A stretch of 64,000 nt of DNA from the human T2T-CHM13v2.0 reference genome, Homo sapiens. Made by a program: the position numbers and the translations under genes. Below are positions 43,993-45,638 of this stretch, in pieces (position 1 is the stretch's first letter; the number at the start of each line of letters is the position of its first letter). Under the pieces are notes generated by a model that saw only the letters and a list, made by a program, of their open reading frames with translations, made no database searches and was not told where the DNA came from. The stretch lies in the NCBI RefSeq assembly GCF_009914755.1, contig NC_060925.1, one strand, 5' to 3'.

Positions 43993-45024
43993 TAGTGTGA
44001 TGCCTCCAGCTTTGTTCTTTTGGCTTAGGATTGACTGGGCGATGTGGGCTCTTTTTTGGTTCCATATGAACTTTAAAGTAGTTTTTTCCAATTCTGTGAA
44101 GAAAGTCATTGGTAGCTTGATGGGGATGGCATTGAATCTATAAATTACCCTGGGCAGTATGGCCATTTTCATGATATTAATTCTTCCTATCCATGAGGAT
44201 GGAATGTTCTTCCGTTTGCTTGTGTCCTCTTTTACTTCGTTGAGCAGTGGTTTGTAGTTCTCCTAGAAGAGGTCCTTCGTGTCCCTTGTAAGTTGGATTC
44301 CTAGGTATTTTATTCTCTTTGAAGCAATTGTGAATGGGAGTTCACTCATGATTTGGCTCTCTGATTGTCTGTTATTGGTGTATAAGAATGCTTGTGATTT
44401 TTGTACATTGATTTTGTATCCTGAGACTTTGCTGAAGTTGGTTATCAGCTTAAGTAGATTTTGGGCTGAGACAATGGGATTTTCTAAATATACAATCATG
44501 TCATCTGCAAACAGGGACAATTTGACTTCCTCTTTTCCTAATTGAATACCCTTTATTTCTTTCTCCTGCCTGATTGCCCAAGCCAGAATTTCCAACACCA
44601 TGTTGAATAGCAGTGGTGAGAGAGGGCATCCCTGTCTTGTGCCAGTTTTCAAAGGGAATGCTTCCAGTTTTTGCCCATTCAGTATGATATTGGCTGTGGG
44701 TTTGCCATAGATAGCTATTATTATTTTGAGATACGTTCCATCAATACCTAATTTATTGAGAGTTTTTAGCATGAAGGGCTGTTGGATTTTGTCGAAGGCC
44801 TTTTCTGCATCTATTGAGATAATCATGTGGTTTTTGTCTTTGGTTCTGTTTATATGCTGGATTACATTTATTGATTTGTGTATGTTGAACCAGCCTTGCA
44901 TCCCAGGGATGAGGCCCACTTGATCATGGTGGATAAGCTCTTTGTTGTGCTGCTGGATTTGTTTTGCCAGTATTTTATTGAGGATTTTTGCATCAATGTT
45001 CATCAGGGATATTGGTCTAAAATT
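43993..45024 (-). mobile_element. L1 segment B: inverted ORF2 RT region duplicating 43247-43982 and extending ~310 nt further 3'
   Basis: Minus-strand ORFs 44263..45282 and 43990..44172 encode NFRPISLM...KAGGITL. Confidence 0.95.
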
Positions 45025-45638
45025 TCCAACTGAGGAACACAGCTCCTCACCAGCAATGGAACAAAGCTGGACGGAGAATGACTTTGACGAGTTGAGAGAA
45101 GAAGGCTTCAGATGATCAAACTTCTCCGAGCTAAAGGAAGATGTTCGAACCCATTGCAAAGAAGCTAAAAACCTTGAGAAAAAGATTGGACAAATGGCTA
45201 ACTGAATAACCAGTGTAGAGAAGACCTTAAATGACCTGATGGAGGTGAAAACCATGGCACGAGAACTACATGACACATGCACAAGCTTCAGTAGCTGATT
45301 CGATCAACTGGAAGAAAGGCGATCAGTGACTAAAGATCAAATGAATGAAATGAAGCAAGAAGAGAAGTTTAGAGAAAAAACAGTAAAAAGAAATGAACAA
45401 AGCCTCCAAGAAATATGGGACTATGTGAAAAGACCAAATCTACGTCTGATTGGTGTACCTGAAAGTGACTGGGAGAATGGAACCAAGTTGGAAAACACTC
45501 TTCAGGATATTATCCAGGAGAACTTCCCCAACCTAGCAAGGCAGGCCAACATTCAAATTCGGGAAATACAGAGAATGCCACAAAGATACTCCTCGAGAAA
45601 AGCAACTCCAAGACACATAATTGTCAGATTCACCAAAG
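45022..45638 (+). mobile_element. L1 segment C: spliced 5'UTR/ORF1 fragment
   Basis: ATTTCCAACTGAG (= 39620-39632) is joined to GAACACAGCTCC (= 40636 onward). ORF1 homology continues to TTCACCAA. Confidence 0.9.

What the first reader, a model, noticed from the sequence alone, without database searches (positions are those of the whole stretch)
45022..45060. Exact splice junction inside a composite L1: a segment copied from a spliced L1 RNA, next to an unspliced copy
Seen: ATTTCCAACTGAG|GAACACAGCTCC at 45022-45046. In the neighbouring unspliced copy A these halves are separated by a 1003-nt stretch (39633-40635) that begins GTACTG and ends CTCCCCCCTCCAAAG, i.e. a precise GT-AG intron. Known: this matches the L1 5'UTR donor (~nt 97) to ORF1 acceptor (~nt 976) splice found in spliced integrated retrotransposed elements (SpIREs). 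It removes the promoter and the ORF1 start, so such RNA needs ORF1p in trans. Inference: a spliced and an unspliced L1 RNA were both reverse-transcribed into one locus, a possible fossil of trans-complementation or template switching. Segment C also differs from A at several non-CpG positions (GATGTTCG vs GAATTTTG, AAGACC vs AAATCC, GACACATG vs GACGAATG), hinting at a different source element.
Basis: partly seen in the sequence, partly recalled or inferred. Interest (0 to 1): 0.8.

Follow-up and report, generated by a model that had tools for sequence, protein, structure and literature searches.

The report
Spliced L1 fragment inside rearranged L1
A 617-base piece copied from a spliced LINE-1 RNA sits as a patch inside an old, scrambled LINE-1 insertion that also carried a kilobase of chromosome 12 with it; the splice type and each kind of scrambling are already known, so this is an instructive but not surprising fossil.

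Summary
At 45034|45035 the last bases of the L1 5'UTR first exon (TCCAACTGAG) abut the ORF1 acceptor exon. The neighbouring copy A keeps a 1003-nt GT...AG intron between them, and its first exon is exactly 97 nt. This is the published SpIRE 97/976 junction; this locus is not in the published list of 11.

- B (43993-45026) is inverted ORF2.
- D (45635-45852) copies the first ~218 nt of a 1.04-kb 3' transduction (47057-48097).
- The transduced sequence comes from an AK7 pseudogene fragment on chr12, which has no L1 there now.
- Internal joints show 3-4 nt microhomology. The A|B joint is a 14-nt palindrome.
- A and B share 8 variants absent from the 17 comparison copies; one occurs nowhere else in the assembly.
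- All duplicate pairs differ by 5.4-6.3%.

Best reading (0.55): one integration episode, roughly 20-30 Myr ago, combining twin priming with template switches. It used an unspliced and a spliced L1 RNA.

The hint that C came from a different source is not supported: most A/C differences are private to A. I found no target-site duplication and could not check primate orthologues. This is a new member of known kinds, of moderate interest.

The parts
39536..43982 (+). A: unspliced L1, sense, from nt 1 of the 5'UTR to mid-ORF2 (about nt 4447 in A's own numbering)
   Evidence: The 5' end matches the start of other full-length copies and of SpIRE loci.
39633..40635 (+). The 1003-nt GT...AG intron retained in A and missing from C. 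It contains the ORF1 ATG at 40569.
43980..43993 (.). A|B inversion joint: 10 non-L1 bases (43983-43992) inside a perfect 14-nt palindrome ATAAAGTACTTTAT
   Evidence: Arms of 7 or more occur at 8 of 63999 centres in the window, and this is the only one in A+B.
43993..45026 (-). B: inverted ORF2 segment. It runs from about 313 nt beyond A's end back to A-equivalent 43247.
   Evidence: B shares 8 private variants with A, and one dinucleotide is unique to A and B in the assembly.
45022..45046 (+). The splice junction 45034|45035. The 5' exon remnant is 45022-45034, of which ATT (45022-45024) is microhomology with B. The acceptor exon starts at 45035.
45035..45638 (+). C: ORF1 from the acceptor to about 600 nt downstream, sense. 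It ends in AAAG, shared with the start of D.
45635..45852 (+). D: second copy of the first ~218 nt of the transduced chr12 sequence (AK7-like pseudo-exon plus intron start). It ends in GCT, shared with E.
45850..47062 (+). E: L1 3' end, sense, starting 537-538 nt downstream of A's end in L1 coordinates, with a short A-rich tail
47057..48104 (+). 3' transduction copied from chr12 (locus L009, 4993-6071). It ends shortly after an AATAAA and is followed by seven A (48098-48104).

Best explanation
C (45022-45638) is cDNA of an L1 mRNA spliced from the 5'UTR donor at nt 97 to the ORF1 acceptor at nt 976. It was not inserted on its own. It sits as filler at the inversion joint of one complex L1 integration, roughly 20-30 million years old.

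Proposed course of events (inferred):
1. Reverse transcription started at the poly(A) of an L1 RNA that had read through into 1.04 kb of chr12 flank. It copied that flank and the L1 3' end (E).
2. It stalled about 225 nt short of a second, internally primed cDNA (B, as in twin priming).
3. It jumped back onto the transduced part (D).
4. It jumped onto a spliced L1 RNA (C).
5. It paired with the end of B.
6. After running off B, it went on along unspliced RNA of the same source to its cap (A).

Each internal joint uses 3-4 nt of microhomology or a snap-back palindrome.

Shown: the splice junction, the segment map, the chr12 origin of the transduced sequence, the common source of A and B, and the equal divergence of the duplicate pairs.
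Inferred: the order of the jumps, and that all happened in one episode.
For: Junction: it is identical to catalogued SpIRE(97/976) junctions apart from a CpG change. A's first exon is exactly 97 nt.

Anatomy:
- B is inverted.
- B's upper end, A's end and E's start lie within 538 nt of each other in L1 coordinates, with a 225-nt gap between B and E.

Joints:
- Microhomologies are ATT, AAAG and GCT.
- A 14-nt palindrome lies exactly at A|B.

Transduction:
- 47057-48097 matches chr12 with 56 of 1030 substitutions.
- It starts at a TTTTT|AAAAG site.
- It stops after AATAAA, while chr12 continues into an old repeat.
- Homology between chr12 and the AK7 gene region on chr14 extends on both sides, so chr12 is the parent.

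Common source of A and B:
- They share 8 variants seen in 0 of 17 panel copies, while panel pairs share at most 2.
- GGCTTGGGC occurs only in A and B among the 96 near-matches genome-wide.

Same date: A-B differ at 45 of 719 sites (6.3%), D-D' at 13 of 215, and transduction-chr12 at 5.4%.

B, C and E each differ from the panel majority by 3.3-3.7%, within or below the panel range.

Precedent: a non-inverted L1 piece from a distant part at a twin-priming breakpoint ('twin priming and 3' switching') is described in tumour long reads (bioRxiv 10.1101/2024.08.27.596794, section 4 part 1 read).
Against: - No target-site duplication. The longest word shared by the two flanks is 7 nt, not at the joints, and 102 of 300 random controls match that.
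- B has the wrong polarity for a strand copied only from RNA, so a transient antisense cDNA has to be assumed.
- A simultaneous origin predicts equal decay of partners, but this is not seen. A has 23 rare private sites against 9 in B, and 24 against 6 in C. D has 10 private substitutions against 3 in D'.
- A and C share only 1 rare variant, so a common source for the spliced RNA is not shown.
- The parental chr12 site holds no L1 in this assembly.
- No other primate genome could be examined.
Confidence: 0.55

Rival explanations
1. Two steps. A is what remains of an earlier canonical full-length insertion from the same source, with the same transduction. Soon after, a spliced RNA from that source, or from A itself, inserted by twin priming into it. 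The broken top strand of A primed B, and A's 3' part was deleted.
For: - B-C-D-E plus the transduction is by itself a recognisable 'twin priming and 3' switching' structure.
- Its internal primer would simply be the DNA end of A.
- The missing target-site duplication fits a target deletion.
- The shared A/B variants fit RNA made from A or from its parent.
Against: - It needs two hits from one rare source at one place. No other copy of the transduced sequence exists apart from chr12, chr14 and this locus.
- D-D' (6.0%) and A-B (6.3%) are not younger than transduction-chr12 (5.4%).
- The nearness of A's end to E's start would be a coincidence (roughly 5-10%, my estimate).
Confidence: 0.2
2. Later DNA rearrangement. 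A plain full-length L1 with transduction (A ... E) broke in ORF2 and was repaired by microhomology-mediated template switching. The repair copied nearby DNA (B inverted, D) and a spliced L1 cDNA or a SpIRE locus elsewhere (C).
For: - A and E look like the two sides of one break, 537-538 nt apart, in the same orientation, with a full 5' end and a full 3' end.
- B and D are copies of sequence within 1-2 kb.
- All joints have microhomology or a palindrome.
Against: - C cannot come from local DNA because A keeps the intron.
- C is not especially close to any of the 7 SpIRE loci fetched (90.3-92.7% identity).
- D shares none of D' 's 3 private substitutions or its 3-nt deletion, so D was made at or right after the insertion.
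Confidence: 0.12
3. The composite arose at the chr12 source. There D and D' would be a 218-bp duplication of the target, and D's left end would be the nick itself. The composite was transcribed from A's promoter through the flank, copied whole to chr1 in trans, and the chr12 allele was lost.
For: - D begins at the very first bases of the transduced sequence, which is the endonuclease-like TTTTT|AAAAG site of chr12.
- A begins at L1 nt 1, and the unit ends in AATAAA plus an A run.
Against: - A canonical insertion should have a target-site duplication, and none was found.
- ORF2 is interrupted in the composite, so the RNA would need ORF2p in trans, which is inefficient (recalled knowledge, not tested).
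- It only moves the unexplained rearrangement to another locus.
Confidence: 0.08
4. There is no splice. The 10-13 nt before 45035 are chance, or a continuation of B.
For: ATT (45022-45024) does continue B.
Against: - The next 10 nt do not match B's continuation in any of the 7 reference copies.
- They match the exon end exactly.
- The same string is the catalogued junction.
Confidence: 0.01

Closest known systems
SpIRE 97/976 (Larson et al. 2018, PMC5860796; splice first reported by Belancio and colleagues, as cited there)
   Same: Same donor (G98U99) and acceptor (A974G975), and the same junction string. The splice removes the ORF1 start.
   Different: - Only 10-13 nt of exon 1 and about 600 nt of ORF1 are present.
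- C has no poly(A) or target-site duplication of its own and lies inside another L1.
- It is not among the 11 catalogued loci. The catalogue's probes needed 50 nt on each side at over 95% identity to L1.3.
[quoted passage not shown]
   Same: An inverted segment (B) maps just upstream of the sense 3' segment (E), with a 225-nt gap and microhomology. A non-inverted L1 piece from a far-upstream region sits at the breakpoint.
   Different: - The switched-to piece carries a splice junction, so the template there was a spliced RNA.
- A second filler (D) re-copies the transduction.
- The inverted piece abuts another L1 segment (A), not the flank.
- There is no target-site duplication.
- This is a germline event fixed in the genome, not a tumour event.
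L1 3' transduction (Goodier 2000 and Pickeral 2000, known to me only as references in PMC5860796)
   Same: The L1 3' end is followed by unique sequence from another chromosome. That sequence ends after AATAAA in a second A run.
   Different: The parental chr12 site has no L1 in this assembly. The first 218 nt of the transduced sequence occur twice.
U6/L1 and other RNA/L1 chimeras made by template switching (PMC13174262 / bioRxiv 10.1101/2025.02.02.635956; passages read)
   Same: A second RNA is joined in sense orientation to a 5'-truncated L1 cDNA.
   Different: Here the second RNA is itself an L1 mRNA, in spliced form, and it is internal rather than at the 5' end.

Membership tests
SpIRE 97/976 | Junction joins L1 nt 97 (donor G98U99) to nt 976 (acceptor A974G975) | tested here: met
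   A's first exon is 97 nt, with GT at 39633-4 and AG at 40634-5. The junction string equals the catalogued sequences.
SpIRE 97/976 | An L1 insertion of its own with poly(A), target-site duplication and an endonuclease site | tested here: not met
   C stops about 600 nt into ORF1 and joins D without an A run. The whole composite has a terminal A run but no target-site duplication.
SpIRE 97/976 | Starts at or near the L1 5' end | tested here: not met
   Only 10-13 nt of exon 1 are present. The catalogue does hold two copies truncated inside exon 1.
SpIRE 97/976 | Belongs to L1PA1-L1PA6 | tested here: inconclusive
   A's intron is 125 nt longer than 98-975 of L1.3, which fits a 5'UTR that keeps the 129-bp element of L1PA3 and older. 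No subfamily library was at hand.
Twin priming | Inverted 5' piece next to a sense 3' piece with poly(A), the two mapping side by side in L1 | tested here: met
   B and E with a 225-nt gap.
Twin priming | Inverted piece abuts the target flank, and the insertion is flanked by a target-site duplication | tested here: not met
   B abuts A through a palindromic filler. There is no duplication.
L1 3' transduction | Non-L1 sequence after the L1 3' end, ending in its own poly(A) after a signal, and matching a unique locus elsewhere | tested here: met
L1 3' transduction | Parental locus has a full-length L1 directly upstream | tested here: not met
   chr12 shows uninterrupted AK7-like sequence there. 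A lost polymorphic source is inferred.

The most novel reading that the evidence does not exclude
B, C, D, E and the transduction are all copied from one spliced L1 RNA, which cannot make full ORF1p. A is copied from the unspliced RNA of the same source. On this reading the locus is a physical record of a dependent spliced RNA and its helper RNA sharing one integration complex. Spliced L1 RNAs could then reach the genome by riding on a competent sibling RNA rather than by free trans-complementation.
Probability: 0.25. Interest if true: 0.55.

Novelty: new member of a known kind. Interest (0 to 1): 0.35.

Why it matters
The splice junction works as a built-in label showing that at least two different L1 RNA molecules, one spliced and one unspliced, fed one stretch of inserted DNA. 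Ordinary L1-to-L1 template switches are invisible because the templates look alike. If other primates confirm that the whole composite appeared at once, the locus is a natural germline example of template switching between L1 RNAs. So far that process is inferred mostly from U6/L1 chimeras and tumour long reads.

The finding also shows that the published SpIRE 97/976 count (11) misses older or partial copies. I found 20 further junction-type matches in this assembly.

Tried and rejected
- **A older than the rest.** This was suggested by A's poorer best matches (92% against 94-96%) and its long tree branch. I rejected it because a sliding window shows A is like the panel everywhere except 40736-41335, and mildly 43136-43982.
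- **A's odd ORF1 as a subfamily trait.** Rejected: its densest cluster is unique in the assembly at up to 3 mismatches.
- **D/D' as a long target-site duplication of E at chr1.** Rejected once D' proved to be imported from chr12.
- **C|D or D|E as further splice joints.** Rejected: no register gives GT...AG.
- **Three copies sharing two A/B variants as siblings of the source (L051-L053).** Rejected: they share only 2-4 of the 17 rare sites B carries, essentially the selecting variants.
- **Overlap of best-match lists for B, C and E.** There is none between B and C or between B and E. One E match lies in a catalogued-looking SpIRE on chr15, which I judged a chance-level hint.
- **Target-site duplication.** Searched for twice and not found. 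One search used a flank 5 nt short.
- **Pfam scan of C's ORF1.** Not run, because the frame has stops.
- **Papers on this locus.** None was looked for beyond the SpIRE catalogue. The two literature searches gave no report of a spliced L1 piece at a twin-priming joint. That is a statement about those two searches only.

Full report
**Observation**

- Copy A starts at 39536, so its first exon (39536-39632) is exactly 97 nt.
- The stretch missing from C (39633-40635, 1003 nt) begins GT and ends AG. It contains the ORF1 ATG at 40569.
- The first three of the 13 upstream bases (ATT) also continue segment B. The other ten (TCCAACTGAG) do not match B's continuation in any of 7 reference copies.
- That 10-mer occurs 3 times in the window against 0.32 expected.
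- Larson et al. 2018 (PMC5860796; sections 7, 8, 13, 15 and 21, passages of 16, S1 Table part 2 and string searches of S1 Data read) define SpIRE 97/976 by G98U99/A974G975.
- Their S1 Data sequences carry the same junction string with T, A or G at the variable base. Two of them are truncated inside exon 1.

**Other copies of the junction**

A pattern search of the window's own assembly gave 36 matches at up to 2 mismatches, with 0 and 1 in the reversed-pattern controls.
- 21 of the 36, including this locus, read CTGAG|GAA(C/T).
- 12 read GAGGTAC, which is the unspliced type or something else.
- 3 are unclear.
- All 7 of the 7 fetched are L1s that run from about nt 1-10 to 97 and then from the acceptor onwards.

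The catalogue lists 11 SpIRE 97/976. Its only chr1 entry is at 157.3 Mb (hg38), about 15 Mb from this window. The catalogue's probes needed 50 nt on each side at over 95% identity to L1.3, so this fragment could not have been found.

**Anatomy**

| Segment | Coordinates | What it is |
|---|---|---|
| A | 39536-43982 | Sense L1, nt 1 to about 4447 |
| filler | 43983-43992 | Ten non-L1 bases |
| B | 43993-45026 | Antisense ORF2, from 313 nt beyond A's end back to the equivalent of 43247 |
| C | 45022-45638 | Sense; exon-1 remnant, splice junction, about 600 nt of ORF1 |
| D | 45635-45852 | Non-L1 sequence |
| E | 45850-47062 | Sense L1 3' end, starting 537-538 nt downstream of A's end in L1 coordinates |
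| transduction | 47057-48097 | Followed by seven A |

- The joints B|C, C|D and D|E share ATT, AAAG and GCT with both partners.
- The A|B joint lies in a perfect 14-nt palindrome. Palindromes with arms of 7 or more occur at 8 of 63999 centres in the window, and this is the only one in A+B.

**The transduction**

- D and 47063-47277 are 94-95% alike.
- The longer copy continues to 48097 and matches chr12 (locus L009, 4993-6071) with 56 substitutions in 1030 aligned bases.
- On the left, chr12 homology stops at TTTTT|AAAAG.
- On the right, the chr1 copy ends after AATAAA and runs into A7, while chr12 continues into an old repeat.
- chr12 and a chr14 locus are homologous on both sides of these limits.
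- The chr14 exon is adenylate kinase 7 (Pfam ADK 7.9e-07; PDB AK7 chains 1.3e-22).

So chr12 is the parental, L1-free site. The chr1 sequence is a 3' transduction from a source L1 that is not in this assembly. D is therefore a second copy of imported sequence, not a target-site duplication.

In a four-way alignment D has 10 private substitutions. D' has 3 plus a 3-nt deletion, chr12 has 3 plus a 27-nt insertion, and D and D' share one derived base.

**Relatedness of the L1 pieces**

The panels were as follows:
- 20 near-full-length copies (L011-L030), chosen as C's best ORF1 matches.
- 20 ORF1 pieces chosen as A's best matches.
- 7 SpIRE loci.

Differences from the panel majority:

| Segment | Differences | Panel |
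|---|---|---|
| B | 38 of 1028 | median 36 |
| C | 20 of 603 | range 20-31 |
| E | 39 of 1186 | median 46 |
| A, 5'UTR | 73 of 1083 | median 67 |
| A, middle | 75 of 1988 | median 71 |
| A, ORF1 part | 41 of 603 | range 20-31 |
| A, part overlapping B | 38 of 719 | range 19-33 |

- A sliding window confines A's excess to 40736-41335 and, weakly, to 43136-43982. A is therefore not older overall.
- A and B share 8 variants seen in none of 17 panel copies. Panel pairs share at most 2.
- One shared variant, GGCTTGGGC, occurs only in A and B among 96 genomic near-matches.
- Another belongs to a common variant: 861 near-matches, of which 5 carry both changes.
- A and C share one rare variant, which is present at 6 genomic places.

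A and B therefore have one source. For C the question stays open.

**Dating**

- A-B differ at 45 of 719 sites (6.3%).
- D-D' differ at 13 of 215 (6.0%).
- The transduction and chr12 differ at 5.4%.

These are equal within error, so the duplications date to the insertion itself. With a recalled neutral rate of about 1.0-1.5e-9 per site per year, this gives roughly 20-30 million years.

**Mechanism**

B next to E with a small gap is the twin-priming pattern. [quoted passage not shown] Here the splice junction shows that the switched-to template was a spliced L1 RNA.

I propose one episode with four switches, as set out under the best explanation. In it B serves as a transient template, and the strand returns to unspliced RNA for A.

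Weak points of this model:
- There is no target-site duplication.
- An antisense template for B must be assumed.
- Partners have decayed unequally.
- No source L1 survives on chr12.
- No outgroup genome could be checked.

Three rivals remain open and are scored separately: a two-step insertion, a later DNA rearrangement, and a composite formed at chr12.

**Verdict**

The splice class, twin priming, template switching and transduction are all known, and their combination here is a well-labelled example rather than a new kind.

Noticed in passing
own assembly, places listed (loci L002-L008): At least 20 other loci carry the 97/976-type junction with CCAACTGAG-like donors, and 7 of 7 fetched are true spliced elements. 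The published catalogue has 11. Five of my places lie near catalogue coordinates on the same chromosomes, but the assemblies differ and I did not verify this. Older SpIRE 97/976 copies therefore seem under-counted.
   Followed up: partly
window 45635-45852 and 47063-47277; L009 4950-5110; L010 5086-5211: The transduced sequence begins inside a decayed, unprocessed copy of an adenylate kinase 7 exon with its intron start. chr14 holds the intact-looking exon, and chr12 holds a copy with a stop codon. L1 has thus placed two AK7 pseudo-exon pieces upstream of TNFSF4.
   Followed up: partly
window 47157-48097: By the hub's annotation, the last exon of lncRNA LOC100506023 (minus strand) ends at 47157, inside the transduced chr12 sequence. 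Its 3' end is therefore built from L1-imported DNA. AATAAA-like words lie on the minus strand there.
   Followed up: no
window 40736-41335, densest at 40860-40889: A has about twice the private substitutions of comparable copies here, including 7 changes within 22 nt. The 30-mer is unique in the assembly at up to 3 mismatches. I found no cause.
   Followed up: partly
window 49366-50074 (antisense) and 50321-50929 (sense): An older L1 (about 78-88% identical to A, B and E) also shows an inverted piece followed by a sense 3' piece. It is probably an ordinary twin-primed insertion.
   Followed up: no
window 43732-43745: A has about 14 extra bases relative to B in an A/T-rich stretch.
   Followed up: no
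L009 about 5205-5231: chr12 carries a 27-nt T-rich insertion that is absent from D, D' and chr14.
   Followed up: no
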